From the NCBI GenBank assembly GCA_964394405.1, contig CAYMVY010000001.1, positions 38,546 to 102,545 on the forward strand: a stretch of DNA of 64,000 nucleotides, read 5' to 3'. This document shows positions 2,941-22,600 of the stretch, piece by piece (the first letter of the stretch is position 1; each line of letters begins with the position of its first letter). The position numbers and the translations under genes are program-made. The notes under the pieces are model-generated. The model worked only from the letters and a program-made list of their open reading frames with translations. It searched no databases and was not told the DNA's origin. Origin of the DNA: an uncultured Gammaproteobacteria bacterium. Lineage in GTDB: Bacteria; Patescibacteriota; Patescibacteriia; Magasanikbacterales; UBA922.

Positions 2941-2960
2941 ATTCTTATTTTATCTATGGT

Positions 2961-3809: not shown

Positions 3810-3843
3810 ACGTAATCTTTTTTCTAAAAATTCAAGTTCTTAC

Positions 3844-4257: not shown

Positions 4258-4261
4258 ATAA

Positions 4262-4891: not shown

Positions 4892-4923
4892 ACATTCGTA
4901 CTCGAAAATAAATTTATGCGTTC

Positions 4924-5625
4924 TTAAGTAACTGGAGTTTCTGACAGAACTTCTACTGACTCCACCTTTGTCTCAACAACAGGGGTTGCCTGTTCTTCTA
5001 TAGTAACCATTCCTTCACTGGTTGAAATATATACCAATCCATTACGTGCTCCAGGAATTGCTCCTTTGATCAATAATTCATGTGATTCAGGATGTACTTC
5101 AATAATCTCAAGATTTTTAACCGTCACCTGATCATTTCCCATGTGTCCGCCCATACGCATATTCTTGAATACGCGCTGTACGCCACCAGCTCCGATACTA
5201 CCAGGCATACGAAGGTTATCTTTGTGTCCATGACTTGCAGGACCTCCGGCAAATCCATGGCGTTTTACTACACCCTGGAAGCCTTTTCCTTTTGACATAC
5301 CTGTAACCTGTACTTTCTCTCCTGCTGCAAAAATACCTGCATTGAATCGATCACCTTTCTTAAGATGAGCTACATCGCCTCTAAAATCTTTGAGAAAACG
5401 GACAGTAAGCTGTGGGTTGTCTGCAACAGTAATATCTTTGAGATGTCCTTTCTCAGCTTTAGTCAAACGAAAAGCTTTCTGTACTCCAAAACCAATTTGC
5501 GCAGCACCTTCTTTCACTTGTGTGACAACACAAGGACCCGCTTGTACGCGAGTTACCGGAACTACGGTTCCATCTGCTTTGAATACTTGTGTCATTCCTA
5601 CTTTTTTCCCAATGATGAATTTCAT
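4924..5625 (-). CDS. rplC: 50S ribosomal protein L3
   Basis: Starts MKFIIGKKVGMTQVF and contains FKADGTVVPVTRV; a classic L3. Confidence 0.95.
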   Translation of the reverse strand: MKFIIGKKVGMTQVFKADGTVVPVTRVQAGPCVVTQVKEGAAQIGFGVQKAFRLTKAEKGHLKDITVADNPQLTVRFLKDFRGDVAHLKKGDRFNAGIFAAGEKVQVTGMSKGKGFQGVVKRHGFAGGPASHGHKDNLRMPGSIGAGGVQRVFKNMRMGGHMGNDQVTVKNLEIIEVHPESHELLIKGAIPGARNGLVYISTSEGMVTIEEQATPVVETKVESVEVLSETPVT

Positions 5626-5924
5626 ACCAGTTTTGTTTTTGAAAACTTCCTAGTTACCTCTATTAAAAAACTAGAAGCAAGCAAGCCACCGATACCCTGT
5701 GACATTCTTACTTCTAGCCTCTAAAAAACCATTGGTATATGGAGTTTACTGAAGGCAATTGTAATATGTAATGAATAGCATTCCTCATATGCATCACCTC
5801 TCGCTTCAGATGTTTTCCCCCTATAGTAACGAGGGATCTTATCTGCTCAAAAGATAGTGCATTTTCTTGTGGGACAAGTGTACCCTATTCCAAAGTACCT
5901 GTCAAGTCCCAAATTGTACACAGT
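5626..5924 (-). promoter_or_regulatory. Internal promoter (TTGACA-N17-TACACT) plus a roughly 270-nt structured 5' leader preceding rplC
   Basis: The minus strand reads gggacTTGACAggtactttggaatagggTACACT shortly after the rpsJ stop, followed by about 270 nt with no ORF before the rplC ATG. rpsJ-rplC spacers are usually short. Confidence 0.45.
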
Positions 5925-6266
5925 TTACATCATTTTAATCTCCACATCTACCCCACTTGGCAAGTTCAAATTCATAAGCGCGTCAATTGCTTTTGGGCTT
6001 GGGGAATGGATATCAAGAAGTCTCTTGTGCGTGCGCATTTCATACTGCTCCTGTGCAGTCTTATGAACGAAAGTTGCACGGTTTACACTGTACTTCTGGA
6101 TATGTGTAGGAAGTGGAACTGGGCCTACCACCTTTGCGCCATTGCGCTCTGCAGTATCAATAATAGTTTTCGTTGCACCATCAATAATTTTGTGATCGTA
6201 TGCTTTAATTTTTACACGAACACGTGGGCCAGCTTCTTCTGTTGTTTTCTTTGGTGTAGTAACCAT
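5925..6266 (-). CDS. rpsJ: 30S ribosomal protein S10
   Basis: Contains RVKIKAYDHKIIDGATKTIIDTAERNGAKVVGPVPLPT, the S10 signature. Confidence 0.95.
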   Translation of the reverse strand: MVTTPKKTTEEAGPRVRVKIKAYDHKIIDGATKTIIDTAERNGAKVVGPVPLPTHIQKYSVNRATFVHKTAQEQYEMRTHKRLLDIHSPSPKAIDALMNLNLPSGVDVEIKMM

Positions 6267-6295
6267 AATGAGCGATTTTTTAGAGAGTCAATCTC

Positions 6296-6323
6296 ATCCC
6301 GCCCCCTTTCACGGGAGCGGGAT
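6296..6323 (-). other. GC hairpin between tuf and rpsJ (atcccgccccctttcacgggagcgggat)
   Basis: Imperfect inverted repeat in the 71-nt tuf-rpsJ spacer with no T-tract after it. Possibly a processing or attenuation structure. Confidence 0.3.
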
Positions 6324-6337
6324 AAGAAATGACAGTA

Positions 6338-7555
6338 TTATGCAATAATCTTAGTAACAACCCCTGCTCCTACGGTGCGACCACCTTCACGGATAGCGAA
6401 GCGCATTTGCTCTTCGATAGCTACAGGAACAATAAGCTTGATTTTGATATTTACCGTATCACCTGGCATTACCATCTCAGTTCCCTCTGGAAGAGTAACT
6501 TCTCCGGTAACGTCAGTGGTTCGAATATAGAACTGTGGTTTGTACCCATTGAAGAATGGCTTGTGTCGTCCACCTTCTTCTTTGGTCAACGCGTATACTT
6601 CAGCTTCTACTTCAGTATGAGGTTTGATTGAACCAGTCTTTGCAAGCACCATACCGCGCTCTACTTCTTCTTTCTTGGTACCACGAAGCAAGATTCCGGC
6701 ATTGTCTCCTGCCTGACCCTGCTGCAATGATTTGTTGAACATTTCAACTCCAGTCACCGTAGTCTTCATGGTTTCAGGGCGCATACCAACGATCTCGATT
6801 TCATCACCGATCTTGATAATACCACGCTCAATACGACCAGTTACTACAGTTCCGCGTCCTTCAATTGAGAACACGTCTTCTACAGGCATGAAGAAATTCT
6901 TATCAAGATCACGAATTGGATCTGGAATATACTCATCAAGAGTCTTCAAGAGATCAAGAATAGGCTTAGCAGCTTCAGCATCATTTGGATTCTCAAGAGC
7001 CTTGAGAGAAGAACCTCGTACAATTGGAGTAGTATCTCCAGGGAACTGGTATTTCTTCAACAGATCTCGAACTTCTTCTTCCACAAGGTCGATAAGTTCA
7101 GGATCAGTTACCTGATCAACTTTGTTCAAATAAACAACGATATAAGGTACTCCTACCTGGCGTGCGAGAAGAATGTGCTCGCGAGTCTGAGGCATCGGAC
7201 CGTCTGCTGCAGAAACTACAAGAATAGCTCCGTCCATCTGTGCTGCACCAGTAATCATGTTCTTTACATAGTCAGCATGACCAGGACAGTCTACGTGAGC
7301 GTAGTGTCGCTTTTCAGTTTCATACTCTACGTGTGCAGTAGCAATGGTGATACCACGAGCTTTTTCTTCAGGAGCTGCGTCGATTTCATCAACGTTCTTT
7401 GCCTGAGCTTGTAAACCATGAGCAGCAGCAACTTTGAGGATTGCAGCAGTCGTCGTGGTCTTACCGTGGTCTACGTGACCAATTGTTCCCACATTCACAT
7501 GCGGTTTGTTTCTTAGAAATTCTGCCATATTGGGTGGCTTAGTTCTTTCCCGCAC
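6338..7555 (-). CDS. tuf: Elongation factor Tu
   Basis: 405 aa with [17 protein letters not shown] and NKVD G-motifs; full EF-Tu domain structure. Confidence 0.97.
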
Positions 7556-7638
7556 TACATCCGAATGGTCGGAGTAGATTTATATCCAGCGGAGATAAAT
7601 ATTTAAATTAAAATAAAGGCATACGAAATGCGTTGGGG

Positions 7639-7667
7639 AGTATACGGTATTTATAGAAACTCGTCAA
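7639..7667 (-). promoter_or_regulatory. sigma70-type promoter for tuf (TTGACG-N17-TATACT)
   Basis: The minus strand reads cTTGACGagtttctataaataccgTATACT about 85 nt upstream of the tuf ATG. Confidence 0.5.
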
Positions 7668-7726
7668 GAGGGGTTTCCCTGGGGAAAACCTGGGGATTAC
7701 TAGGGGCAAAAAAACAGTAAAATTCC

Positions 7727-8308
7727 CTAAGTAATTGGCTCCTCCAAAAATACCGGATCATCATCGCCTTCAAGCGAAGATTCCTCCTCAAATAATGCAG
7801 TGCTCACGCCCGATGAATCCATGCTTATTCCTGAAGTTACCTCCATAGGTTGAAACGAACGTGGTTCTTCGACTGGAGTATAGGTATGAATGGGTTCTGC
7901 AGAATCATCCTCATTCAATTTTCTTTTCTTATGACGAGTATCAATCAGATCGCTCACCCGATGCCAGTCAGTATGATGTGCAAAATCTTCCTCAAAAGGG
8001 TCAGATAATGGTTCGTCTGCAAGCTGGTCTTCGAGAAGTGCAGCTTGTTTGTCACGGGTATTCAGCTCCTGGTAAGATCTCCAAATCGCAATATCACGAT
8101 TGATCTTATCAATCAATTCTCGCTCTGACATTTCTTCAAGTAAATATTCATCATAATCTCCATGTCCAAACTGATTGGAGGAAACCAATTCTTCGTACTG
8201 CTCAAATGGCAAAACCACCACATCATGTGCTTGGGTTGGGTCATGGATCACCACCGTATCCCCTGTTTTTTTCGAAAGCGAAAGTATCCGGTTGAGTCTA
8301 TCAATCAT
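7727..8308 (-). CDS. Hypothetical acidic protein (D/E-rich)
   Basis: 193-aa ORF in an intergenic gap with no recognizable domain. It has its own promoter, TTGACA-N17-gTATAAT. Confidence 0.6.
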   Translation of the reverse strand: MIDRLNRILSLSKKTGDTVVIHDPTQAHDVVVLPFEQYEELVSSNQFGHGDYDEYLLEEMSERELIDKINRDIAIWRSYQELNTRDKQAALLEDQLADEPLSDPFEEDFAHHTDWHRVSDLIDTRHKKRKLNEDDSAEPIHTYTPVEEPRSFQPMEVTSGISMDSSGVSTALFEEESSLEGDDDPVFLEEPIT

Positions 8309-8343
8309 AGGATATATTAATAATAAATTGGGGGGATGTACTG

Positions 8344-8373
8344 ATTATACCTACAGAAAAGTCAGGGTGTCAA
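8344..8373 (-). promoter_or_regulatory. Near-consensus sigma70 promoter (TTGACA-N17/18-TATAAT)
   Basis: The minus strand reads gTTTGACAccctgacttttctgtagGTATAATcag about 35 nt upstream of the ATG at 8308. Confidence 0.55.
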
Positions 8374-8492
8374 ACCGAAAAAAATACAATTATTCTAATT
8401 GACCTAAGTACTCTAAAATAATACACCATTTGAAATAAGTTAGAATGATTAGAATAATTTTCCCATCCGTTCTATTTATCCACCAAAAAATC

Positions 8493-8521
8493 TTGACGCA
8501 TGATAAAAAAAATAATACAAT
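8493..8521 (+). promoter_or_regulatory. sigma70 promoter (TTGACG-N17-TACAAT) driving a non-coding transcript
   Basis: The plus strand reads cTTGACGcatgataaaaaaaataaTACAAT. Confidence 0.5.
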
Positions 8522-8527
8522 GATCGT

Positions 8528-8897
8528 CTGTTCTTTTTTTGGTATAAGAGTTACTGTGTGGAAAGCTAGTCCGATGAGGAGCAAGCGCTGGTGAATAATT
8601 CACCGCCCTTTCTCCTGACCGGACTTCTCTGTCCGCCAGGTTAGATCGCATTCGCGATCTTCATCTTCTACCGCCACACAAAGGAAAATACCATGCGCCT
8701 CAGGGTTGCAATCAAAAGGCCTGAATCACTCTTCGCCCTGTCCGTGGTCGCCTCCGGACTCATCCTGTCGATCGCAGGACTGTTCCGGAGCTGAACTTCG
8801 TCCGATCTTCGGCCCCCCTCCTCCGGGAGGGGTGGCCTATCGGACGAAAAAAACAAACCAAAAAAAACAAAACGCGATATTGCGTTTTTTTGTTTAT
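8528..8897 (+). ncRNA. Candidate structured ncRNA of about 370 nt with unknown identity
   Basis: Bounded by the promoter at 8493-8521 and an intrinsic terminator (aaaacgcgatattgcgttttttt, 8866-8897). About 57% GC in an AT-rich genome. Multiple nested GC helices, for example cgtccgat...ggcccccctcctccgggaggggtggcc...atcggacg and ctccgga...tccggag. No SD-linked ORF. Confidence 0.45.
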
Positions 8898-9121
8898 TAA
8901 CAATCAAAGAACACTAATTGTGTACAACAAAATAATTAAAGTTAATATCAAAATATTTGTTAAATAAAACATTAGGGGTTCGGGGGTGAAAACTGTCCGA
9001 GCTACGAGTGTAGAATAAATGGGGAAACTTAGTGAGGCGAGTTTTTTCACCCCCGAAACTTTTTGTAAAACTTTTTGGTTACAAAAAGTTTTGGATAAAG
9101 CATTTAAGTATTTTGCAAATA

Positions 9122-9162
9122 AATTAAAAACAAAAACCCCGCTCTTCCTAGAAGGGCGGGGC
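9122..9162 (-). terminator. Intrinsic terminator downstream of the 16S rRNA gene
   Basis: The minus strand reads ccccgcccttctaggaagagcggggtttttgttttt. Confidence 0.6.
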
Positions 9163-9331
9163 TATGTTATTGAAGATATTTCACAAAATACATGTGGCAA
9201 AAACCTTGTTCCGACGTTACGTCGAGAACGATTGAATGTTTTCTTATACTTAGAGCAATGCCAGATCATACTCTTGCGAGTGTAATCATGACTTTGGATA
9301 AATCTCGATTTTCATCGAGATCAGACTCCAG

Positions 9332-10835
<1,504 letters not shown>

Positions 10836-11270
10836 TTGAGTTTATTTCTTCCGAAGAAGAAATTAGTGTTTGATTGTAATCAACATATTTACTCAAAAAT
10901 ATGTATGATTCTCATATACTAGATTAAGCATATGAGTTAGCTCTAAGAAAATAGACAATCAATCTGGTTTTTGCCACGTGTATTACGTGAACTTCGCTGC
11001 GCATCCTCCCGAAGGAGCCTGGCGCAACACCATATTAATTATTTTTGCTGTATTGTTGTTTCACATCTTCAAATTGTAAAGATCGTACCCTTTTTTTCTT
11101 TGGTAAAAGAAAAAAGAGAAACTCTGTTGCCTTTGGAATGTATGTGTTATCCAAAAGCAAATATAGTCGCTCTTTTCTTAGTATCTCGGGGTCAGTGACA
11201 GGCTCGCCTTAGCAAGGCTAGTAGACTTGAGAAAAGGTTAGGTTATAAACATCATTTTCAGTGCTCGCAT

Positions 11271-11299
11271 ATAGTATAAAACTCTGAAACATCTGTCAA
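11271..11299 (-). promoter_or_regulatory. sigma70 promoter (TTGACA-N17-TACTAT) upstream of 16S
   Basis: The minus strand reads cTTGACAgatgtttcagagttttaTACTAT about 430 nt upstream of the mature 16S 5' end. Confidence 0.45.
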
Positions 11300-11398
11300 G
11301 TGGTATGGCAAGTCCCAATTGTTCACACATTGGGGATAACTTGATAGAAGGCAAAAGTTAAAAGTAAAAAGTCAAAAGAATAATACCCTCTCTAAAGA

Positions 11399-12136
11399 CT
11401 ACTTACTCTGTTTTTTGCGCCATTCAGCGATTTTTTTGTGATCTCCACTCAGCAGAACCTCAGGCACTTTCCATCCCTTAAAATCTACAGGTTTTGTATA
11501 CTGTGGATACTCAACTTCAATCTCTTGCATTCCACTTTTTACCTTTTCCTTTTTACTTTTTACTTTATTAAAAGTTTCCTCCACCAACGACTCCGCATTC
11601 CCCAATACTCCTGGCACCAATCGAGACACTGCTTCGATAATCGTAAGCGCTCCCAATTCACCACCTGCCAACACATATGGACCAACTGAAATTTCCTCAT
11701 CAATCATATGATCCACGACCCGCTGATCTACTCCTTCGTATCGACCGCAAATCAAAATAAGTTCATCAAGTTTGGCCCAAGATTCGGCAATTGATTGATC
11801 AAACTGTCGTCCACGTGGAGACAATAATACCGTCCGTTTTTTCTTTGCAACCGTTCCAGTTGCCAGTCGTTTGAGTTTAGTTAAACCAGGAGCTTTTTTG
11901 AATGGCAATCCATCAATCGACACCAGTGCCTCATAAATCGGATCTGGCTTCATGAGCATCCCCGCTCCCCCGCCATACGGTGTATCATCCACCGTCTTGT
12001 GTTTGTCATATGTGAAGTCTCGAATATAAATCGCCCGCACATCAATCAATTTCTTTTTTTGCGCACGACCAAGAATCGTCTCATCAGTATATGAAGTAAT
12101 AATGTTTGGAAAAAGTGTGAGTACTGAAAATTTCAT
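11399..12136 (-). CDS. trmD: tRNA (guanine37-N1)-methyltransferase
   Basis: 245 aa with SPOUT/TrmD motifs (LTLFP, DDTPYGGGAGM, ICGRYEGVD, GPYVLAGGE). Confidence 0.9.
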   Translation of the reverse strand: MKFSVLTLFPNIITSYTDETILGRAQKKKLIDVRAIYIRDFTYDKHKTVDDTPYGGGAGMLMKPDPIYEALVSIDGLPFKKAPGLTKLKRLATGTVAKKKRTVLLSPRGRQFDQSIAESWAKLDELILICGRYEGVDQRVVDHMIDEEISVGPYVLAGGELGALTIIEAVSRLVPGVLGNAESLVEETFNKVKSKKEKVKSGMQEIEVEYPQYTKPVDFKGWKVPEVLLSGDHKKIAEWRKKQSK

Positions 12137-12252
12137 AATGCTAGTAGTATAGCAACAATTGGCTTATTAAAAAATCCTCTCTTCGAGGAATGAATCGACC
12201 GTCCTCACCAACTGCGTGTAGCAATTGATGAGGACGACCATGTGGTGGTGGA

Positions 12253-12684
12253 TCAGCCGAGCGTGCCCGCCAAGATCGGCGCGAAGAGCTTCTCGGGATC
12301 TTCGGACTCGACAGTGCCCTCACCCTTCTCCAGGTAGACGCGCATGCGCCCCGTGCGCTCGAGTGGAACGTCGTGCGCCAAGTAGAACACATCGACCTTG
12401 AAGAACCTCTCCTCGATCAGGTCACGGATCTGGCCGATCAGGAGCAACGCCCCCGGCTTCGGCTCGTAGTAGGAGATGCTCTCCACGAACAGCTCGAGCT
12501 GATTCGGGAAGATGCCACGCCCGTCGACACAGACCGTCATGGGCTGACGATCAGTGGTGTGGTAGTAGTCCCGGTGGGACACATAGATGTCCCAGATCCC
12601 CGAATTGTTCGAATTCGAGACGATCGGAAGGGTGACAAAATCTTTCCCCTCCTCCCCGACAGACACGTTGTCCAAAGCTCCCAT
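12253..12684 (-). CDS. Hypothetical protein A1 of GC-rich island A (paralog of the 58303-58725 protein)
   Basis: Internal Met preceded by the SD gtcgccAGGGGGttatcATG. About 55% GC. Shares the spaced motif EGxxF..LP...YYxxxDRxxxxVxDGxGxFxN with the island E protein. Confidence 0.6.
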   Translation of the reverse strand: MGALDNVSVGEEGKDFVTLPIVSNSNNSGIWDIYVSHRDYYHTTDRQPMTVCVDGRGIFPNQLELFVESISYYEPKPGALLLIGQIRDLIEERFFKVDVFYLAHDVPLERTGRMRVYLEKGEGTVESEDPEKLFAPILAGTLG

Positions 12685-12875
12685 GATAACCCCCTGGCGA
12701 CTGAAGAAAAACACGTGCTGGTGTCGCAAACCAGACAGAAAAAAATATCATACATAGTGAAAAATGTCAATAATAAAACAAAAAATCCTCTGAATAAAGG
12801 ATTGACCAATCCGCATTCACCCAAGCCGAAGCTCAGATGAATGCGGAACAGAGAACGTTGACCCACACACTGACC

Positions 12876-13175
12876 TCACGGGTCGAGGACGATCACGTAG
12901 CGCGTCACCTGTTCATCCGGCTGATGGGGCACGTCGTGAACATTGGGACCGATCCGTTCGATCGAGACGATGGTATTGTAGTTCAGCATGGCGAACCACG
13001 CCGAATCCGGGAACACAATCATCTCAGACGTCCGATCACCGTCATGCGTCCAGTGAAGGGAAAAAAGATTTTCAGGAAAACCCCCATAGGAGATGCGGCC
13101 AGTCTCCTTATTACCCTGATCATCATACCGAGCCAGCGGCGAACCACGAAATTCCAAACCGTACAGAATATCCAT
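12876..13175 (-). CDS. Hypothetical protein A2 of GC-rich island A
   Basis: 99-aa ORF with the SD caGGAGGGttttccATG and its own promoter about 35 nt upstream. GC-rich codon usage. Confidence 0.55.
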   Translation of the reverse strand: MDILYGLEFRGSPLARYDDQGNKETGRISYGGFPENLFSLHWTHDGDRTSEMIVFPDSAWFAMLNYNTIVSIERIGPNVHDVPHQPDEQVTRYVIVLDP

Positions 13176-13213
13176 GGAAAACCCTCCTGAAACAGTGGCG
13201 TTTCTTATCATAC

Positions 13214-13242
13214 TATCTACAATATTTCATACCCAAAGTCAA
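13214..13242 (-). promoter_or_regulatory. sigma70 promoter (TTGACT-N17-TAGATA) for the island A cassette
   Basis: The minus strand reads aTTGACTttgggtatgaaatattgTAGATAgt. It is back-to-back with the plus-strand promoter at 13249. Confidence 0.5.
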
Positions 13243-13248
13243 TAAAAA

Positions 13249-13277
13249 TTGAAAAATATATATAGGTCGGGTATGAT
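13249..13277 (+). promoter_or_regulatory. sigma70 promoter (TTGAAA-N17-TATGAT) for the nucleotide-sanitation operon; near-leaderless mRNA
   Basis: The plus strand reads aTTGAAAaatatatataggtcgggTATGATacagcctgcgtATG. The -10 element ends only 11 nt before the ATG at 13289 and there is no SD. Confidence 0.5.
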
Positions 13278-13288
13278 ACAGCCTGCGT

Positions 13289-13813
13289 ATGAAACTTCTC
13301 AAACTCCCACAACTCAAACAAATCTACGAATACGACTGTGGCGCAACCGTACTCCAGTCAGTACTCGGCTACTTTGGCATCGAAGTGAAGCCACACAAAA
13401 TCAGAAAACATGCGGGAACAAACAAAGATGGCACCCTGATTGTCGGCATCACCGTAACTCTCGCAAAACACGGACTCAAATATACGTCAAAACAAATGAC
13501 CGTACGCGAAGTCACTCATTTTCTCGATACTGGCATCCCTGTCATACTCCTCCTCCAGGCATGGACGACCAAAAAGAATGTCAATTGGGAAACAGATTGG
13601 TCTGATGGCCACTATGTAGCGGCCATAGGATATGACAAGAAAAAAATGATATTCGCAGACCCCTGGTCATTCACACACACGTATCTAACTTTCGATGAAC
13701 TAAAAAAACGATGGCATGACAAAGATCCTCGGGGAAAAAAACACATCAACTGGGGAATCGCAGTCTACGGAAAAGATCCATCAATCAACAAAAAATTAAT
13801 CCACATGGATTAA
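13289..13813 (+). CDS. C39-like papain-fold cysteine peptidase (Peptidase_C39_2 family)
   Basis: Catalytic Cys in YDCGATVLQSVLGYFG and His in GHYVAAIGYD. Confidence 0.65.
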   Translation: MKLLKLPQLKQIYEYDCGATVLQSVLGYFGIEVKPHKIRKHAGTNKDGTLIVGITVTLAKHGLKYTSKQMTVREVTHFLDTGIPVILLLQAWTTKKNVNWETDWSDGHYVAAIGYDKKKMIFADPWSFTHTYLTFDELKKRWHDKDPRGKKHINWGIAVYGKDPSINKKLIHMD

Positions 13814-13816
13814 TAT

Positions 13817-14257
13817 ATGCATACACGACACACCATTATTCCCGCCGCATACCTCATACTCAAACAAGAAAACAAGATTCTTCTGATTCGCCGTTGTAAC
13901 ACCGGTTTTGAAGATGGAAATTATAGTATGATTGCCGGACATGTGGACCAAGGTGAGACATTTACTAAAGGTATGATTCGTGAAGCGAGAGAAGAAGCTG
14001 GAATCACACTCAATCCAGATGATATGAGATTAGCACACATGATGCATCGCAAATCTCACGTAGACGCTGAAGAAAGAATCGACGCATATTTTCTTGCAAA
14101 TACGTGGTCTGGTGAACTTACCAATAAGGAACCACACAAATGCGATGACTTCTCGTGGTTTGATATAAATGACTTACCAAAAAATGTTATCCCCTATATC
14201 AAATTCGCGTTGGAAAATATTAAAAAAAATATTTTCTATAGCGAATATGGATGGTAA
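13817..14257 (+). CDS. NUDIX hydrolase
   Basis: Nudix box GHVDQGETFTKGMIREAREEAGI. Confidence 0.85.
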   Translation: MHTRHTIIPAAYLILKQENKILLIRRCNTGFEDGNYSMIAGHVDQGETFTKGMIREAREEAGITLNPDDMRLAHMMHRKSHVDAEERIDAYFLANTWSGELTNKEPHKCDDFSWFDINDLPKNVIPYIKFALENIKKNIFYSEYGW

Positions 14258-14574
14258 TAAATACTATGGATTTCAAAGAATTACAAAAAATCATCGTCAA
14301 AAATGCACTTGAATACGGAAAAAGACATAACATACAAATAGATGCAGATTTTGCGCTCACTAAATTATTTGAAGAAGTAGGAGAACTGGCGCAGGCAGTA
14401 CTCATTCATCAGAAAAAATGTCGCACAAAAAAATTAGTACCCGAAGAGATATCAAAAAAAGAGCTCGGAAAAGAACTCGCTGATGTTATCGGCATGACCA
14501 TTGTACATGCTCACCTGCTCGGGATTGATCTGGAAGAAGCGATTGATAAAAAATGGATTCATAAAGAGGTATAG
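14251..14574 (+). CDS. MazG-like nucleotide pyrophosphohydrolase
   Basis: Contains the EEVGELAQAV and ELADVIGM motifs of the MazG all-alpha NTP-PPase fold; 107 aa. Confidence 0.75.
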   Translation: MVINTMDFKELQKIIVKNALEYGKRHNIQIDADFALTKLFEEVGELAQAVLIHQKKCRTKKLVPEEISKKELGKELADVIGMTIVHAHLLGIDLEEAIDKKWIHKEV

Positions 14575-14577
14575 AAT

Positions 14578-14928
14578 ATGAAAAACCGCAAACGCCTCAT
14601 GTATATTGAACATAAAGGAGTGGATGGGTTGACCGGACATAGTAGAATCGGTTGGGTTGAAATTTCCAAAACGGGACGATCATACCACTACCAAGGAAAA
14701 ACTTTCAAAAAAGAACGTGGTGGTTTCAAACACAATTGTATCGATTGGGAAACCAAAGAAATGTATTGGATCTCAGGACCGAAAAAAGACGGAAGTGATA
14801 CATTGTACGGGAAAGGCATAGTGGAAATTGATGACGATGCGCGTGAAGAATACTGGATCAATATTCGAAAACTTCCACAATATGTAAACGAACGAACATA
14901 TAATACCGCTCGGAGATATAATAGCTAA
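14578..14928 (+). CDS. Hypothetical protein (operon member)
   Basis: 116-aa ORF tightly packed with its neighbours (3-nt gaps). No recognizable motif. Confidence 0.6.
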   Translation: MKNRKRLMYIEHKGVDGLTGHSRIGWVEISKTGRSYHYQGKTFKKERGGFKHNCIDWETKEMYWISGPKKDGSDTLYGKGIVEIDDDAREEYWINIRKLPQYVNERTYNTARRYNS

Positions 14929-14931
14929 CAT

Positions 14932-15513
14932 ATGAAAATCGCAATTGATATCGATGACGTACTGGCAAATTTTACCCCAGCACTCATTGAATTCCACAAT
15001 ACACAATACGGAACCAATTACACTCTCAATCATTTCAATTCATACCATCTTGAAGAAGTGTGGGGCGGGACTCGAGAAGAAGCAATTGACAAAGTATTTA
15101 TTTTTTACGAAACGCCAGAGTTCAAAAATGTTGACGTCATTGAGAATGCAAAAAATGTACTCTACGAACTCAAACAGAGTCACGACCTAGTCACCATGAC
15201 AGCACGCCCAGAAGCAATCAGGGACAAAACAGAAGAATGGATTGGGAGACATTTCCCGGGGCTATTTTCACACATTCATATTGCCAATCGATTTTCAAAG
15301 ACAGGCCCAAAAACTACCAAAGCTGAATTGTGCGAAAAACATGGTGTAGATATGCTTATCGACGACTCACTCGATTACGCGCTCCAGGCAGTAGCACCCC
15401 ATCGCCGAGTATTGTTATTCGACAGACCATGGAACCAGACACCAAATCTACCAGAAGGAATTCATCGCGTACATTCGTGGAAAGAAATCCCAAAACTCAT
15501 ATGGAATTCCTAG
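14932..15513 (+). CDS. HAD-superfamily 5'(3')-deoxyribonucleotidase (NT5C-like)
   Basis: N-terminal DxDxV motif (KIAIDIDDVLANF) and LIDDS motif. Confidence 0.75.
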   Translation: MKIAIDIDDVLANFTPALIEFHNTQYGTNYTLNHFNSYHLEEVWGGTREEAIDKVFIFYETPEFKNVDVIENAKNVLYELKQSHDLVTMTARPEAIRDKTEEWIGRHFPGLFSHIHIANRFSKTGPKTTKAELCEKHGVDMLIDDSLDYALQAVAPHRRVLLFDRPWNQTPNLPEGIHRVHSWKEIPKLIWNS

Positions 15514-15989
15514 ATGTTGTCAGCGACCGCGATGAAGTGATTGGAAGAGCCTCTCGAGATGAGATATACAAAAAACTCCTTCCCCACCGTATCGTGCATA
15601 TCTTGATTTTTAATGATAGGCAAGAAATGGCACTACAGCTCCGAAGCAAAATAGCGTCATTCTGTCCTGGTCACTGGTCGACTGCTGTCGGTGGACATGT
15701 GCAATCAGGAGAAAATTATGAGCAAGCAGCGCTCCGTGAATCAGAGGAAGAATTGGGAATAAAAAGTGAGTTGCAACTATTGGGTAGCGATATCTATGAA
15801 GCAAAAAATAGACCAAAAAAATTCCTCAGAACATTTACCACTCAATATAATGGACCATTCAAAACAGAAGAAGGCGCTGTCGAAAAAGTAGAATTTTTTC
15901 CATTAGAAAAGATAAAGCAAATGATTTTAGGTAAAGAAAAATTCCATCCAGAACTTTTGTATATACTTCAAAAATATTTTGTAAACTAA
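15501..15989 (+). CDS. NUDIX hydrolase (second copy)
   Basis: Nudix box GGHVQSGENYEQAALRESEEELGI. The start was chosen at MEFLD, overlapping the previous gene by 13 nt. Confidence 0.75.
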   Translation: MEFLDVVSDRDEVIGRASRDEIYKKLLPHRIVHILIFNDRQEMALQLRSKIASFCPGHWSTAVGGHVQSGENYEQAALRESEEELGIKSELQLLGSDIYEAKNRPKKFLRTFTTQYNGPFKTEEGAVEKVEFFPLEKIKQMILGKEKFHPELLYILQKYFVN

Positions 15990-16018
15990 AACACCCGGCC
16001 ATGGCCGGGTGTTTTTTT
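15988..16018 (+). terminator. Intrinsic terminator
   Basis: aaaacacccggccatggccgggtgttttttt. Confidence 0.7.
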
Positions 16019-16109
16019 CTTCCTGAATCATTGTTTATATTAAAAAAATATTTTGTGTAAATAGTAAAAATTGCTATACTAAGAGCGGTAAAATAACTAA
16101 ATTATTTAT

Positions 16110-17375
16110 ATGGATCCAAATTTGGTGCAGCAACAAAATTCAAACATTCATCCACGAACTGTATTATACATCGTACTCTCAATTATTCTTACTGCAGGAA
16201 TTGTTGGTGGTGCAATGTATTGGTGGAAATCATCAGAAAATACAAAATTAACACGAATAAATAAAGCACAGAGTGTACAGATAGATAGTTATAAAATACA
16301 GCTGACCGCCAAGAACAGCACATCAGAAAGTACACAGGAAACTATTGAACCAAAAAACCCCAAAATGCAAAAATACCATAACAATGAATACGGATTTGAA
16401 TTTGAATATCCTGAAACCAATTTCCTGATTGAAAATGTTTGGTCAATCTCACCATCAATAAAAGATTTAAGTCATCAATTTGATGATCCGGGTCTTATTG
16501 TACAATTAACTAACGATAGCCAAACTCAAAATGTCATAGATATAGCAGTACTTGCAATCAAAAAAGAAGCAGTCGAATCTCTATTTACACGACTAAAATC
16601 AGGACAAGAAAAAAGTCAGAAAACAGGAGACGCTTGGTGTAAAAAATTTATCTCTGAAGAAGGGTTTGAGCAATGTGCCTATTACGGTGGAGGCTGGACA
16701 TATTCGACTACAACCATTGATGGTGTACAGGCCGTGGAAGCATTTTTTGCAGGCGAGGGTGGTAGGACAAAAAAAATATTTTTACCTTCCAAAGGAATTT
16801 CTATCTATATGGAAAACCCGGGAGATAAAAGAATACTTTCCGATGATGATTTTCTTAAATCTTTCAAATTTACAGACTCTACTCGAACTATAGTCGACTC
16901 ATCGACTCAAATCTCGTTCAACTGTCCCGCGTATTGGTCATGTGACTATATTGATACGGACACTATACCACGATACAATTTGTACGGACCTCAAAATCAA
17001 TATATTGAACTAAACCTGAAGAATGCGATAGAGAAGGATATCGAAAAATTAATCGAGGATAAAAAAATAGACAACGAAGAAGATGAAGTAAAATACGCAA
17101 AAGCACTCAGTGAATGTAAATCAAAAAATGGAACTCCTGAAGAATGCGATAGCTATGTAAGCTATACCGCAGGAATGATTTTCACGGATAAAGAAAGTAC
17201 GATGTCAATAAAAGGAGAACAAGGAGTATTTTCTGGAGAACGCATATTTTATAAAGGAGATTACTTTGGCTTCAACCTATTCTTTCCAAAAAAAGGCTGG
17301 ATAATATCTGCTTCACTGCAGAGTGGCGACGATATACGTATGTCTAAAGAATTTATCGAAAGCCTCTTCAAATAA
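16110..17375 (+). CDS. Hypothetical membrane-anchored or secreted protein
   Basis: 421 aa with one N-terminal TM helix (VLYIVLSIILTAGIVGGAMYWW) and a large hydrophilic domain. Confidence 0.65.
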   Translation: MDPNLVQQQNSNIHPRTVLYIVLSIILTAGIVGGAMYWWKSSENTKLTRINKAQSVQIDSYKIQLTAKNSTSESTQETIEPKNPKMQKYHNNEYGFEFEYPETNFLIENVWSISPSIKDLSHQFDDPGLIVQLTNDSQTQNVIDIAVLAIKKEAVESLFTRLKSGQEKSQKTGDAWCKKFISEEGFEQCAYYGGGWTYSTTTIDGVQAVEAFFAGEGGRTKKIFLPSKGISIYMENPGDKRILSDDDFLKSFKFTDSTRTIVDSSTQISFNCPAYWSCDYIDTDTIPRYNLYGPQNQYIELNLKNAIEKDIEKLIEDKKIDNEEDEVKYAKALSECKSKNGTPEECDSYVSYTAGMIFTDKESTMSIKGEQGVFSGERIFYKGDYFGFNLFFPKKGWIISASLQSGDDIRMSKEFIESLFK

Positions 17376-17390
17376 AAAATCTAATGTACA

Positions 17391-17420
17391 AAAAATACCC
17401 CGGTAAAGCGGGGTATTTTT
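17391..17420 (+). terminator. Intrinsic terminator (bidirectional; also serves fusA)
   Basis: aaaataccccggtaaagcggggtatttttt. Confidence 0.7.
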
Positions 17421-17458
17421 TGTATGTATTCGTGTTAATTCGTATGTAAATTTGCGCT

Positions 17459-19558
17459 TTACTTCATCTTCCCACTTACAACCTGTGCCTCAATATTCTT
17501 GGGACATTCAGCATACTTCGAGAACTCCATAGCATATGTTGCTCGTCCCTGAGTCATCGATCGGAGGGAAGTAGCATAGCCAAACATACTGGCGAGAGGT
17601 ACCATAGCGCGAATAACTTTTGCAGTTCCTCGCTGAGTCATCTCCTCGATCTGACCTCGCTTACTTGAAAGGTCTCCAATGACGTCTCCCATATACTCTT
17701 CAGGAGTCGTAACTTCTACTTTCATGATAGGTTCGAGTAATACAGGATTTGCTTTATTCGCAGCTGCGACAAATGCCATACTTCCTGCGAGCTTGAAAGC
17801 GATTTCACTAGAGTCGACCTCGTGATAACTTCCATCAAATACCGTCACTTTTACATCAAGAATTGGATAGCCTGCAACAATACCTTTGCCCACCGCTTCT
17901 TTCACACCTTTTTCAATCGCAGGAATATATTCACGTGGGATCAATCCTCCCTTGATATCATCCACAAAGACGAGATTTTCTCCACCAGCTTCTGCTTTTT
18001 CTTCAGGAGTGAGCGGTTCTACTTTGAGCCAGCAATGTCCGTATTGACCACGTCCACCAGACTGTTTGACATGCTTTCCTTCAGCCTCAGCGCTCTGGCG
18101 AATAGTTTCTTTATACGCAACCTGTGGAGCACCTACTTGTGCCTCTACTTTGAACTCACGGCGCATACGATCAACGATAATGTCGAGATGTAATTCTCCC
18201 ATTCCCGCGATAATAGTCTGAAGTGTTTCAGGATCACTTGATACTCGGAATGTAGGATCTTCTTCAGCAAGTTTCTGTAGTGCGATACTCATCTTTTCAG
18301 CATCACCCTTGGTATTAGGTTCAATAGCAACAGAAATAACCGGTTCTGGGAAGGTAGGTCGCTCGAGTACTACAGGTCGAGATTCTTCGCACAAAGTATC
18401 TCCAGTAGTCGTATTCTTGAGACCAATTGCAGCTGCGATTTCTCCTGCATATACCTGCTCTACATCTTCACGAGTATTTGCATGAAGTCGCACAATTCGT
18501 CCAATACGCTCTTTGGTACCATTAGTACTATTCAATACATAGGTTCCTGCTTTCAAATTTCCAGAATACACACGGAAGAAAGTAAGGCGTCCAACAAAAG
18601 GATCAGTCGCGACTTTGAATGCGAGTCCAACAAAAGGATCAGTGTCGCTTGATTTTACTTCAATAATTTTTTCTTCATCATCTGGATCATGCGCAGTGAT
18701 AACGGGCATATCAACCGGAGCCGGCAAATACGCAACCACATTGTCGAGTACCAATTGTACTCCAATGTTCTGCAAAGCAGTTCCACACATGACTGGATAA
18801 ATTTCATCTTTCAAAACCATACTGCGGATTGCAGTTTTGATTTCTTCAATTGAAAGTGTGTTAGTTTCAAGATATTTATTCATGAGCTCATCACTTGCTT
18901 CAGCTACTTTTTCAAGCAATGCAGAGCGATATTCTGCGACCTGAGCTTTCATATCTTCGGGAATTTCAAATTCCACTACATTGATTCCATGATCCCCTTC
19001 AAATCGATACGCTTTCTCTTCAATAATATCGATAATCCCTTTAAACTCAGACTCCATACCGATAGGCAATTGAATTGCAAAAGCGTTTGGAGACAATCGA
19101 GTTCTAATTGAATTTAATGTCATGAAAAAGTCAGCACCAGTCTTATCCATCTTGTTGGCAAAACAAATACGAGGCACGCGATATTTATCTGCCTGACGCC
19201 ATACAGTCTCAGACTGTGGTTCTACCCCCTGTGAGCCATCGAATACTGCAACTGCTCCATCGAGTACGCGGAGTGATCGCTCTACTTCTACGGTAAAGTC
19301 TACGTGGCCTGGAGTATCGATCAAGTTGATGCGATGATTTTTCCAAAAACACGTGGTAGCAGCAGAAGTAATGGTAATACCGCGCTCTTTTTCCTGTTCC
19401 ATCCAGTCCATTTCAGCAGCACCTTCGTGAACTTCTCCGATTTTGTGTTTTTTTCCAGTATAAAAAAGAATCCGTTCAGAAACCGTCGTCTTTCCAGCAT
19501 CAATATGCGCCATGATACCGATATTGCGCACGCGCTCAAGTGGATAATCTCGTCCCAT
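17459..19558 (-). CDS. fusA: Elongation factor G
   Basis: 699 aa starting AHIDAGKTT, with DTPGHVDF and the EF-G domains II-V. Confidence 0.97.
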
Positions 19559-19586
19559 AAAAATTGGGGTTAATGGTAAATATTAC

Positions 19587-20066: not shown

Positions 20067-20100
20067 ATATTTCTGTAATGATTATCTAATGAAAAGTGAG

Positions 20101-21459: not shown

Positions 21460-21686
21460 CTATATGCGAAAATGCGAACTCTGCAAAAAAGGTACCGTCA
21501 GCGCAGCGAATCGAAGTCACTCAAAAGTGAAAACACTCCGAAAGCAGCACGCCAATCTTCAAAAATTTATGGGTCTTGTGCTCTGCAGCTCATGCCGACG
21601 AACAATCCAAAAAAAGGTGGCAAAAGCGTAATAAATATTTTCTCAAAAAATCCCGATTAAATCGGGATTTTTTATTGTGTCACATA

Positions 21687-22598: not shown

Positions 22599-22600
22599 AT

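What the first reader, a model, noticed from the sequence alone, without database searches (positions are those of the whole stretch)
7556..17458. A 10-kb insertion splits the conserved str operon between fusA and tuf
The near-universal minus-strand order rpsL-rpsG-fusA-tuf-rpsJ-rplC is intact here except that fusA ends at 17459 and tuf starts at 7555. The 9.9 kb between them hold mixed-strand content: an acidic orphan protein, a structured ncRNA candidate, a standalone 16S rRNA gene, trmD, a GC-rich two-gene cassette and a plus-strand nucleotide-sanitation operon. tuf has acquired its own promoter (TTGACG-N17-TATACT). This is a breakpoint in one of the most conserved gene strings in bacteria, filled with accessory-looking material.
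Basis: partly seen in the sequence, partly recalled or inferred. Interest (0 to 1): 0.55.

Follow-up and report, generated by a model that had tools for sequence, protein, structure and literature searches.

The report
Lineage-wide gap splitting fusA from tuf
In this uncultivated ultra-small bacterium (Candidatus Magasanikbacteria group), the normally adjacent genes for elongation factors G and Tu lie 9.9 kb apart, separated by a complete stand-alone 16S rRNA gene, trmD and some variable small genes; related genomes share the layout, so it is an old lineage-specific rearrangement, not a fresh insertion or an assembly error.

Summary
rpsL-rpsG-fusA ends at 17459 and tuf-rpsJ-rplC... begins at 7528/7555 on the minus strand, with 9.9 kb between them.

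The reading as a recent, accessory-filled insertion is only partly right. Three independent assemblies of close relatives (16S 98-99% identical) span the whole interval with the same skeleton: fusA, opposite-strand NUDIX/NT5C genes, small ORF, trmD, 16S, ~1 kb spacer, acidic protein, tuf. More distant relatives keep parts of it. L091 (16S 89%) has trmD...16S-acidic-tuf, and L004 (EF-G 72%) has fusA-trmD...16S. Two Logan contigs match the window at 100% across fusA-to-cargo and trmD-to-16S.

In sister lineages the order is fusA, acidic gene, tuf, with 0.4-1 kb gaps. The "acidic orphan" therefore belongs to a large uncharacterised family that sits there ancestrally, and the break lies between fusA and that gene.

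The 16S gene is a self-contained unit with a conserved promoter, a leader-trailer stem and a terminator. No 23S or 5S occurs in the 64 kb.

Only C39-like, MazG, hyp116 and the 421-aa membrane protein are missing from the relatives' homologous intervals. tuf-proximal promoter-like sites also occur in some unsplit relatives.

Verdict: an ancient, still-evolving break in the str-S10 cluster that holds an unlinked 16S gene. It is a new variant of known phenomena and of moderate interest.

The parts
17459..20529 (-). Head of the str operon: rpsL (20101-20529), rpsG (19587-20066), fusA (17459-19558)
   Evidence: Pfam S12, S7 and the EF-G domains. The same three genes sit in the same order in 80 related loci.
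17387..17424 (.). 16-bp perfect hairpin between the convergent genes fusA and mem421; a bidirectional terminator-like site that would end the rpsL-rpsG-fusA transcript
   Evidence: Terminator scan on both strands; inverted repeat I12, 100% complementary.
16110..17375 (+). 421-aa N-terminally anchored protein with no family match; absent from the homologous interval of all relatives seen (35.5% GC)
   Evidence: No Pfam, NCBIfam or PADLOC hit. No tblastn hit in L084, L088, L089 or L107. Present at 100% identity in Logan contig L108.
13289..15989 (+). Plus-strand gene string: C39-like peptidase domain protein (13289-13813), NUDIX (13817-14257), MazG-like (14251-14574), hyp116 (14578-14928), NT5C 5'-nucleotidase (14932-15513), NUDIX/YfcD-like (15501-15989)
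   Evidence: Pfam and NCBIfam. The NUDIX-NT5C-NUDIX core is conserved in L084 and L107; L088 lacks NT5C and L089 lacks the second NUDIX. C39-like, MazG and hyp116 are found only in the window.
12253..13175 (-). Two GC-rich (51.5%) small protein genes, about 143 aa (12253-12684) and about 99 aa (12876-13175), each with its own promoter and RBS; a terminator follows the 143-aa gene. They are restricted to this lineage.
   Evidence: The alignment with L084 shows conserved promoters, GGAGG + ATG, a shared stop and indels that are mostly multiples of three. Only 4 homologues exist among 5.8 billion proteins. No family hits.
11399..12136 (-). trmD (tRNA m1G37 methyltransferase), detached from the usual rpsP-rimM-trmD-rplS context
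   Evidence: Pfam PF01746, 1.1e-55. No rpsP, KH, lepB or hisS homologue anywhere in the window. trmD lies upstream of 16S in L084, L088, L089, L091 and L107, and directly after fusA in L004.
11271..11339 (-). 16S promoter (TTGACA-N17-TACTAT, 11299..11271) with a conserved upstream TTATCCCCAAT.TGTG motif (11339..11331)
   Evidence: Promoter scan. Both elements are invariant in a 6-genome alignment that includes L091 and L004.
9332..10835 (-). Complete 16S rRNA gene, unlinked from 23S/5S
   Evidence: Rfam RF00177, 1436 bits, model positions 1-1533. No LSU or 5S hit in the 64 kb.
9137..9205 (-). 16S trailer. The arm at 9180-9205 pairs with the leader arm at 10966-10991 (the expected processing stem). 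An intrinsic terminator hairpin lies at 9161..9137, followed by a T-run.
   Evidence: Inverted repeat I3, 26 nt, 88% complementary. Conserved and covarying hairpins and a terminator in a 7-genome alignment. Hairpin 9137-9161 listed on the plus strand by the terminator scan.
8493..8895 (+). Small divergent plus-strand unit: promoter TTGACG-N17-TACAAT (8493-8521), about 165-nt structured leader, 33-codon hydrophobic ORF (8695-8796), long hairpin (8800-8846), bidirectional terminator (8869-8888)
   Evidence: Promoter and terminator scans. Conserved in 7 genomes. RNAalifold pairs the 5' end with the SD region, and 17 of 38 pairs keep pairing after a change on both sides. No Rfam match.
7727..8373 (-). 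Acidic 193-aa protein gene (7727-8308) with a 12/12 consensus promoter (8373..8344). It belongs to a large uncharacterised Patescibacteria family whose ancestral position is between fusA and tuf.
   Evidence: Promoter. Full-length homologues at 49-68% identity. Homologous ORFs lie between fusA and tuf in about 18 loci. 1,480 representative clusters at E<=1e-3. Weak Phd/YefM-like N-terminus in 20 of 25 members.
7550..7696 (-). tuf promoter (TTGACG-N17-TATACT, 7667..7639) preceded by repeated TCCCCAGG motifs (7696..7680), then a conserved 5'-leader stem-loop (7592..7550)
   Evidence: Promoter scan. Conserved in 8 related genomes. Leader stem ACGGCUGG...GGCCGU is also present in unsplit relatives. 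The TCCCCA motif upstream of a promoter occurs only at the 16S and tuf promoters in the window.
2614..7528 (-). tuf (6338-7528) followed by the S10 operon: rpsJ, rplC, rplD, rplW, rplB, rpsS
   Evidence: Pfam. The same order is annotated in L082, L084, L086, L088, L090 and L091.

Best explanation
The interval is an old, lineage-specific rearrangement of the str-S10 cluster in a Magasanikbacteria-type Patescibacteria clade.

Ancestrally the order was rpsL-rpsG-fusA-[Phd/YefM-like acidic protein]-tuf-S10. In the common ancestor of this clade a segment carrying trmD (a piece of the trmD-operon neighbourhood) and a stand-alone 16S rRNA operon came to lie between fusA and the acidic gene, in the same orientation.

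The cluster now most likely works as separate transcription units:
- rpsL-rpsG-fusA, ended by a hairpin terminator.
- The small GC-rich genes and trmD.
- A monocistronic 16S operon with its own conserved promoter, leader-trailer processing stem and terminator.
- acidic-tuf-S10, driven by a consensus promoter and a second tuf-proximal promoter.

Once opened, the fusA-trmD and 16S-acidic junctions became tolerated sites for gene gain and loss:
- NUDIX/NT5C 'nucleotide housekeeping' genes on the opposite strand, conserved at about genus to family depth.
- C39-like, MazG, hyp116 and the 421-aa membrane protein, absent from the relatives' homologous intervals.
- A RibD_C gene, a 254-aa ORF or proB-proC in relatives.
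- In one relative, complete detachment of fusA.

Shown here: gene identities, conservation of the order, independence of the assemblies, and sequence conservation of the promoter, terminator and stem elements. Inferred: the direction and single origin of the event, the transcription units, and the functions of the cargo.
For: Identity of the organism: the best EF-G relatives are Magasanikbacteria, Falkowbacteria and other Patescibacteria MAGs, and one acidic-protein homologue is labelled Candidatus Magasanikbacteria.

Same skeleton across the whole interval in three independent assemblies:
- L084 (NCBI GCA_964447765.1, 160-kb contig): 16S 98.3%, EF-G 94%, gap 7.5 kb.
- L088 (JGI 3300014059): 16S 98.7%, gap 6.5 kb.
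- L089 (ENA ERZ15185866): 16S 97.9%, gap 6.9 kb.

Partial confirmations:
- A 16S 3' end lies 0.7-1 kb upstream of acidic-tuf-rpsJ in L082, L086 and L090, and in the Logan contigs L085 and L087.
- L091 (16S 89%, EF-Tu 87%) reads trmD-proB-proC-16S-acidic-tuf.
- L004 (EF-G 72%) reads fusA-trmD-...-16S.
- The same strain assembled by another pipeline: L108 equals window 12309-19412 and L081 equals window 10802-12248, both at 100%.

Polarity of the change:
- About 18 other Patescibacteria loci carry the acidic-family ORF between fusA and tuf, with gaps of 0.4-1.2 kb. L013 has a separate 5.5-kb insert at the same fusA|acidic junction.
- An EF-G NJ tree groups {window genus, L001, L004} with 95% bootstrap, none of which shows tuf downstream of fusA. 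The sister pair L002/L003 (81%) includes L002 with fusA-x-acidic-tuf, and L007 keeps fusA-acidic-tuf.

Functional 16S unit: invariant promoter and upstream motif in 6 genomes, a 26-nt leader/trailer complement, and a conserved terminator.

Cargo variability. No mobile-element genes or flanking repeats were found.
Against: - The phylogeny rests on one protein (EF-G, NJ). L091 has no fusA on its contig, and L004's contig ends inside the 16S gene. A single origin of fusA-trmD...16S-acidic-tuf is therefore pieced together from overlapping partial views.
- L001, the nearest outgroup of the window genus, has fusA-rpsP-KH-tRNAs-lepB-hisS with no trmD or 16S within 10 kb. At least one further rearrangement must be assumed.
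- In L107/L086 (one MAG) the cargo-trmD-16S block is preceded by Tat genes rather than fusA.
- Transcription units are predicted from consensus scans only, and those scans return many chance hits (30 promoter-like sites against 21.6 expected).
- All relatives are MAGs or metagenome contigs.
Confidence: 0.8

Rival explanations
1. Recent insertion of an accessory or mobile island into an intact str operon.
For: - The plus-strand genes are oriented against their neighbours and differ in composition: 38% GC, with mem421 at 35.5% and the two small minus-strand genes at 51.5%, against 41.7% for the window.
- Their content differs between genomes with 98% identical 16S.
- C39-like, MazG, hyp116 and mem421 are seen only in this strain.
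Against: - The skeleton (trmD, 16S, acidic gene, NUDIX/NT5C core) is conserved in at least 5 related genomes, down to 16S 89% identity.
- The interval contains essential single-copy-type genes.
- No integrase, transposase or flanking repeat is present, and no tRNA lies at the borders.
- At most about 3.4 kb (C39-like, MazG, hyp116, mem421) can be recent.
Confidence: 0.1
2. Assembly artefact: two genome halves joined wrongly, for example through the conserved 16S gene.
For: rRNA genes are frequent break or chimera points. Several relatives' contigs do end inside the 16S gene (L004, L082, L086, L090, L107).
Against: - Three independent assemblies from different projects read through the whole interval in the same order.
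- Logan contigs of run SRR12404947 reproduce window 10802-12248 and 12309-19412 exactly.
- The leader and trailer flanking the 16S gene are complementary to each other, as expected for one transcription unit.
- EF-G and EF-Tu on the two sides have the same nearest relatives.
Confidence: 0.02
3. A Rickettsia-type chimera: recombination between two tuf copies (a str-type tufA and an rrn/tRNA-linked tufB) left a single tuf with a foreign upstream region.
For: A 16S gene upstream of tuf recalls the rrnB-tufB adjacency reconstructed for ancestral Gammaproteobacteria (abstract of PMC6735719). Only one tuf is visible in the window.
Against: The gene immediately upstream of tuf is the same acidic-family gene that lies between fusA and tuf in unsplit relatives. 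The tuf leader stem is also shared with them. The breakpoint is therefore upstream of the acidic gene, not at tuf. No second tuf or tuf fragment is seen.
Confidence: 0.05

Closest known systems
[quoted passage not shown] 2019, PMC6735719; Brandis 2021, PMC8046335)
   Same: A few genes are inserted into the conserved translation-gene cluster. Later lineages show variable content or full disconnection, as described for tusDCB, bfd-bfr, nrdHEF and ilv-leu inserts. Here the gap ranges from 6.5 to 9.9 kb, and fusA is detached in L107.
   Different: The four inserts analysed in detail there lie mostly between operons; one (nrdHEF) lies inside the rpoBC operon. Here the break is inside the str operon, between fusA and tuf, and the inserted core is itself translation machinery (a 16S rRNA operon and trmD) in the same orientation. 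The lineage is Patescibacteria, which those studies did not cover.
Unlinked rRNA genes (Brewer et al., bioRxiv 10.1101/705046)
   Same: The 16S gene has no 23S or 5S nearby. That paper reports Patescibacteria as a clade with predominantly unlinked rRNA genes.
   Different: In the passages read, that work classifies linkage only. The specific conserved position, between trmD and the acidic-tuf-S10 unit inside the str-S10 cluster, with its own terminator and leader-trailer stem, was not found in the papers searched here.
Split fusA / tuf in Rickettsia, and fusA without a downstream tuf in Campylobacterota
   Same: fusA is not followed by tuf. L055 (Helicobacter) and L069 (Campylobacterales) show no tuf within 10 kb of fusA. 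The Rickettsia prowazekii 'chimeric' tuf arrangement is from my own knowledge; no paper was retrieved.
   Different: In those lineages the two genes are far apart in the genome, and in Rickettsia the split is attributed to tufA/tufB recombination. Here they stay 6.5-10 kb apart and co-oriented, and the breakpoint lies upstream of a conserved pre-tuf gene.
Phd/YefM antitoxin family (PF02604), for the acidic protein only
   Same: 20 of 25 family members give weak PF02604 hits over the N-terminal ~40 residues (best 1.3e-6). The AF2 model shows a helix, a beta-hairpin and a helix there.
   Different: The window protein scores 13.4 bits against a cutoff of 29.8. No toxin gene is adjacent. The protein has a long helix, a conserved LTE.EL.DKINRDIA.W motif and an acidic [FY][FL]EEP tail. 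Its genomic position next to tuf is conserved.

Membership tests
Canonical str operon (rpsL-rpsG-fusA-tuf as one unit) | The four genes are contiguous and co-oriented | tested here: not met
   The genes are co-oriented, but fusA and tuf are 9,930 bp apart, with 13 protein ORFs and a 16S gene between them.
Canonical str operon (rpsL-rpsG-fusA-tuf as one unit) | Co-transcription of fusA and tuf | not testable with these tools
   A terminator-like 16-bp hairpin follows fusA, and promoters precede the acidic gene and tuf. These are predictions only and need RNA data.
Unlinked rRNA gene arrangement | The 16S gene has no 23S in the same operon (separated by more than about 1.5 kb) | tested here: met
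   Rfam finds one SSU and no LSU or 5S in 64 kb. Downstream of the 16S gene come a terminator and protein genes.
Genomic island / integrative mobile element | Integrase, transposase or recombinase gene | tested here: not met
   All ORFs of the interval were scanned against Pfam, NCBIfam and PADLOC. None matched.
Genomic island / integrative mobile element | Flanking direct repeats or a tRNA/tmRNA target | tested here: not met
   No repeat pair brackets the interval or the cargo. The nearest tRNA is at 22727.
Genomic island / integrative mobile element | Presence/absence polymorphism among close relatives | tested here: inconclusive
   This holds for C39-like, MazG, hyp116, mem421 and for individual NUDIX/NT5C genes. 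It does not hold for trmD, 16S, the acidic gene or the interval as a whole.
trmD operon (rpsP-rimM-trmD-rplS) | trmD flanked by rpsP/rimM and rplS | tested here: not met
   The neighbours are a lineage-restricted small ORF and the 16S gene. There is no rpsP or KH-protein homologue in the window. L001 has rpsP-KH after fusA, and L004 has trmD-x-lepB after fusA.
Phd/YefM antitoxin (acidic protein) | Pfam PF02604 match above the gathering score | tested here: not met
   13.4 bits against a cutoff of 29.8 for the window protein. The best family member reaches E = 1.3e-6.
Phd/YefM antitoxin (acidic protein) | Adjacent cognate toxin gene | tested here: not met
   The downstream gene is tuf. Upstream lie a promoter and a divergent small unit. 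The same holds in relatives.

The most novel reading that the evidence does not exclude
The 16S rRNA operon was not dropped at random. In this clade it has been recruited into the str-S10 cluster as part of a co-regulated 'ribosome-synthesis' block. The 16S promoter and the tuf-S10 promoter share a conserved upstream ATCCCCA-type motif that occurs at no other promoter-like site in the 64 kb, suggesting one unknown factor couples rRNA and EF-Tu/r-protein transcription. The conserved Phd/YefM-like acidic protein encoded just before tuf, together with the conserved tuf leader stem (present where a Shine-Dalgarno is missing), would then be CPR-specific regulators of this block.
Probability: 0.15. 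Interest if true: 0.6.

Novelty: new variant of a known kind. Interest (0 to 1): 0.35.

Why it matters
The fusA-tuf junction is among the most stable gene adjacencies in bacteria. This case shows a whole uncultivated lineage that has lived for a long time (16S divergence of at least 11%) with the junction opened and its only visible 16S gene parked inside it. The opened junction then behaves as a tolerated site for gene turnover.

This supports, in a phylum not previously examined, the idea that one insertion relaxes selection on cluster integrity. It also gives a concrete, conserved genomic address for an unlinked 16S gene in Patescibacteria, and a synteny marker (trmD-16S-acidic-tuf) for this clade.

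In practice it warns annotators and binning pipelines that a 16S gene between fusA and tuf is genuine here. It also points to a large unnamed protein family (about 1,500 clusters) tied to tuf.

Tried and rejected
- **GC-rich 12.1-13.3 kb stretch as a structured RNA.** Rejected. The alignment with L084 shows two ORFs with conserved promoters, RBS and ATG, a shared stop and indels that are mostly multiples of three.
- **Function of the acidic protein.** A PDB sequence search gave nothing below E = 0.17. The AF2 model was only moderately confident (pLDDT 68.7), and Foldseek against PDB gave no hit at E <= 1e-3. Only a weak Phd/YefM signal remains.
- **Cargo as an anti-phage defence system.** PADLOC returned only a generic NUDIX candidate model.
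- **Mobile-element signatures.** None were found.
- **Known RNA families in the 16S-to-acidic spacer and elsewhere in the interval.** Rfam gave only sub-threshold chance-level hits.
- **Metagenome-wide scan for the plus-strand leader hairpin.** All 15 matches lie in unrelated G+C-rich sequence and are chance hits.
- **TTATCC[AC]C[AC] as clustered DnaA boxes or an origin.** There are 3 matches in the window against 2.1 expected, and the cumulative GC skew falls almost monotonically across 1-26 kb without reversing. Rejected.
- **L091 as a fusA-trmD junction.** Its upstream ORF is a CarboxypepD_reg surface protein, not EF-G.
- **Literature search for the Rickettsia tuf/fusA case.** No usable open-access paper was returned.
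- **Second profile search for the acidic family through the word-indexed database.** It added only 6 proteins. The exhaustive representative search was needed to see the family's size.

Full report
**What is in the window.** The minus strand carries rpsL (20101-20529), rpsG (19587-20066) and fusA (17459-19558). After a gap come tuf, rpsJ, rplC, rplD, rplW, rplB and rpsS, all confirmed by Pfam. The longest tuf ORF begins at GTG 7555. Homologues align only from residue 9-10 and are 396 aa long, so ATG 7528 is the probable start. The gap is therefore 7529-17458, or 9,930 bp.

**Content of the gap, read from fusA towards tuf:**
- A perfect 16-bp hairpin at 17387-17424, shared by the convergent genes.
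- A plus-strand string: a 421-aa anchored protein (16110-17375), NUDIX/YfcD-like (15501-15989), NT5C (14932-15513), hyp116, MazG-like, NUDIX (13817-14257) and a C39-like protein (13289-13813).
- Two GC-rich small minus-strand genes (12253-13175).
- trmD (11399-12136).
- A complete 16S rRNA gene (9332-10835; Rfam 1436 bits), with no 23S or 5S in the whole 64 kb.
- A 1-kb spacer.
- An acidic 193-aa gene (7727-8308).

**Organism.** The closest EF-G sequences come from MAGs labelled Candidatus Magasanikbacteria, Falkowbacteria and 'Patescibacteria group'. One homologue of the acidic protein is annotated as Candidatus Magasanikbacteria. The exact protein occurs on a 596,879-bp contig.

**Not an assembly artefact.**
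- Logan contigs from run SRR12404947, built by a different assembler, match window 12309-19412 (gc cassette, cargo, fusA) and 10802-12248 (trmD to the 16S 5' end) at 100%.
- Three assemblies from different projects read through the entire homologous interval in the same order:
  - L084: NCBI GCA_964447765.1, 160-kb contig, 16S 98.3%, EF-G 94%.
  - L088: JGI 3300014059, 16S 98.7%.
  - L089: ENA ERZ15185866, 16S 97.9%.
- The 16S leader and trailer contain a 26-nt complementary pair (10966-10991 and 9180-9205, 88%). This is what one expects of a single rRNA transcription unit with a processing stem.

**Not a recent insertion.** The skeleton is: fusA, opposite-strand NUDIX/NT5C genes, a small ORF, trmD, 16S, spacer, acidic gene, tuf, rpsJ. 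It is present in L084, L088 and L089, with gaps of 7.5, 6.5 and 6.9 kb. Other loci share parts of it:
- L082, L086 and L090, and the Logan contigs L085 and L087, start in or just after a 16S 3' end lying 0.7-1 kb upstream of acidic-tuf-rpsJ.
- L107, from the same MAG as L086, carries NUDIX-NT5C-NUDIX, the gc143 homologue, trmD and the 16S 5' end.
- L091 (16S 89%, EF-Tu 87%) has trmD-proB-proC-16S, then 296 nt, then acidic-tuf-S10.
- L004 (EF-G 72%) has fusA directly followed by trmD and, 8.5 kb further on, a co-oriented 16S gene at the contig end.

**Where the break lies and its polarity.** In about 18 other Patescibacteria loci, a small ORF lies between fusA and tuf that belongs to the same family as the 'acidic orphan'. 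The family has three shared features:
- an N-terminal motif L..I..L.KKTGD..I..D...V.LP..YE.L;
- a central motif LTE.EL.DKINRDIA.W;
- an acidic C-terminus ending [FY][FYL].EP.

In those loci the gaps are only 0.4-1.2 kb. The ancestral order was therefore fusA-acidic-tuf, and the extra DNA sits between fusA and the acidic gene. L013 has an unrelated 5.5-kb insert at the same junction.

An EF-G neighbour-joining tree (688 columns, 100 bootstraps) groups the window genus with L001 (83%) and then L004 (95%). None of these shows tuf after fusA. The next group is L002/L003 (81%), of which L002 reads fusA-x-acidic-tuf; L003's contig ends 1.2 kb after fusA. L007 follows.

Downstream of fusA, L001 has rpsP, a KH protein, two tRNAs, lepB and hisS. 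L004 has trmD-x-lepB. Both are pieces of the usual rpsP-(rimM)-trmD-(rplS)-lepB neighbourhood; that this is the usual neighbourhood is my own background knowledge.

The most economical reading is one old event that placed trmD-operon material and a 16S operon after fusA, followed by differential loss and reshuffling. This step is inference.

**How it probably works now.**
- rpsL-rpsG-fusA ends at the hairpin at 17387-17424.
- The two GC-rich genes each have a conserved promoter, GGAGG and ATG. A terminator (TTCCTCGAAGAGAGGATTTTTT) follows the 143-aa gene just before trmD.
- The 16S gene has its own promoter (TTGACA-N17-TACTAT, 11299..11271). The promoter and the upstream TTATCCCCAAT.TGTG motif are invariant in six genomes, including L091 and L004.
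- The 16S trailer carries covarying hairpins and ends in an intrinsic terminator at 9161..9137.
- The acidic gene is preceded by a 12/12 consensus promoter (8373..8344).
- tuf is preceded by CTCTTGACG-N17-TATACT (7667..7639), which is conserved through the clade.
- Promoter-like sites also precede tuf in several unsplit relatives: L002, L007, L012, L013, L019 and L028. A tuf-proximal promoter is therefore not a repair that followed the split. An internal tuf promoter is also known in E. coli (own knowledge).

All transcription statements are predictions from sequence.

**What is truly variable.** Among genomes with 98-99% identical 16S, the opposite-strand cargo differs:
- L084 and L107: NUDIX-NT5C-NUDIX.
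- L088: NUDIX-NUDIX.
- L089: NUDIX-NT5C.
- Window: C39-like, NUDIX, MazG, hyp116, NT5C, NUDIX, mem421.

Other differences are a RibD_C gene in the 16S-acidic spacer of L088, and a 254-aa ORF between trmD and 16S in L089.

In L107 the block is preceded by TatC, three TatA genes and a Big_13 protein rather than fusA. In that genome the str head is further away or fully detached.

No integrase, transposase, defence-system model or bracketing repeat was found.

GC content is 38.2% for the plus-strand string (mem421 35.5%), 51.5% for the two small genes and 41.7% for the window.

The 143-aa protein has only four homologues in 5.8 billion sequences.

The 'accessory-looking' impression is therefore right for roughly a third of the interval and wrong for its core.

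**The acidic protein.**
- It has 20 full-length homologues at 49-68% identity.
- A profile of these finds 1,480 representative clusters at E <= 1e-3 and 573 at E <= 1e-10 among 1.84 billion representatives. No Pfam family matches above threshold.
- 20 of 25 members give weak PF02604 (Phd/YefM) hits on the N-terminal ~40 residues, the best at 1.3e-6. The window protein scores 13.4 bits against a cutoff of 29.8.
- AlphaFold2 (pLDDT 68.7) predicts a helix, a beta-hairpin and a helix, then a long helix (62-98) and a disordered acidic tail.
- Foldseek and PDB sequence searches were uninformative.

Its function is unknown. Its fixed position before tuf across many Patescibacteria is the notable point.

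**Comparison with what is known.**
- Unlinked 16S genes are reported as typical of Patescibacteria (bioRxiv 10.1101/705046).
[quoted passage not shown] Of the four inserts analysed in detail there, three lie between operons and one (nrdHEF) lies inside the rpoBC operon (PMC8046335; PMC6735719).
- fusA without a downstream tuf also occurs in Campylobacterota loci retrieved here (L055, L069) and, from my own knowledge, in Rickettsia.

What differs here is the combination of three features:
- the break is inside the str operon;
- what fills it is a co-oriented, self-contained 16S operon plus trmD;
- the arrangement has been kept over at least 11% 16S divergence while its margins keep turning over.

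I found no paper describing this, but only three literature searches were made.

**Verdict.** This is a genuine, old, lineage-specific variant of two known phenomena: cluster interruption and unlinked rRNA. It is neither a fresh island nor an artefact. Interest is moderate (0.35). The more speculative reading, that 16S and tuf-S10 are co-regulated through a shared upstream motif, is given separately.

Noticed in passing
window 8493-8895 (+): A small divergent unit sits between the 16S terminator and the acidic gene. It has a conserved promoter (TTGACG-N17-TACAAT) and a ~165-nt leader with a strongly conserved hairpin (GUCCGAUGAGGAGC...CUCCUGACCGGAC). Its 5' end (CUGUUCUUUUUU) pairs with the AAGGAG ribosome-binding site. 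A short hydrophobic ORF follows: 33 aa here, 33-82 aa and non-homologous in relatives, absent in L082 and L090. A covarying long hairpin and a bidirectional terminator end the unit. The architecture resembles a type I toxin mRNA or a small RNA. There is no Rfam match, and a metagenome scan for the hairpin gave only chance hits.
   Followed up: partly
window 11331-11339 (-) and 7680-7696 (-): The 16S promoter and the tuf promoter both carry a conserved ATCCCCA-type motif 20-45 nt upstream of the -35 hexamer: TTATCCCCAAT at 16S and a repeated TCCCCAGG at tuf. The motif is conserved in relatives down to L091 and L004. In the 64 kb these are the only two promoter-like sites with it. It may be a shared regulator or UP-like site.
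   Followed up: partly
window 7550-7592 (-); also L002, L005, L007, L008, L010, L011, L016, L019, L028, L091: A conserved stem-loop lies in the tuf 5' leader (ACGGCUGG ... variable hairpins ... GGCCGU), 20-25 nt before the start codon. It is also present in unsplit Patescibacteria. Loci that have it lack an obvious Shine-Dalgarno, whereas several loci without it have AAGGAG (for example L017, L022, L029, L037). It is not in Rfam. Covariation was not analysed.
   Followed up: partly
window about 23100-24700: A second G+C-rich patch has three blocks of 50-64% GC separated by AT-rich spacers, in a 41.7% GC window. There is no Pfam hit, no Rfam hit, and no homologous DNA in any locus fetched. The longest ORF (207 aa) looks non-protein-like. 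Several 60-90-aa minus-strand ORFs with hairpin terminators look more plausible. It may be another cassette of lineage-restricted GC-rich small genes like 12253-13175.
   Followed up: partly
window 15942-15982 and 16016-16056: A 41-nt imperfect direct repeat (76% identity, 74 nt apart) brackets the terminator hairpin between the second NUDIX gene and the strain-specific 421-aa gene. It may be a footprint of the junction where that gene was added.
   Followed up: no
L088 8991-9470; L089 6302-7066; L091 2298-4112; L013 12221-16942: Relatives carry different extra genes at the same junctions. L088 has a RibD_C-domain gene in the 16S-acidic spacer. L089 has a 254-aa ORF between trmD and 16S. L091 has proB-proC between trmD and 16S. 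L013 has an unrelated 5.5-kb multi-gene insert between fusA and its acidic-family gene.
   Followed up: partly
L107 3783-7810 (same MAG as L086): In GCA_964435035.1 the NUDIX/NT5C-gc143-trmD-16S block is preceded by TatC, three TatA/B/E genes and a 590-aa Big_13-like protein instead of fusA. The str head is therefore displaced in that genome.
   Followed up: partly
window 20755-22800: The genes upstream of rpsL are conserved with relatives. An M50-peptidase-like 234-aa protein has homologues (33-85% identity) in the same position in most Patescibacteria loci. A UPF0176/rhodanese protein (21687-22598) is also present in L088, and tRNA-Pro(GGG) lies at 22727-22800.
   Followed up: partly
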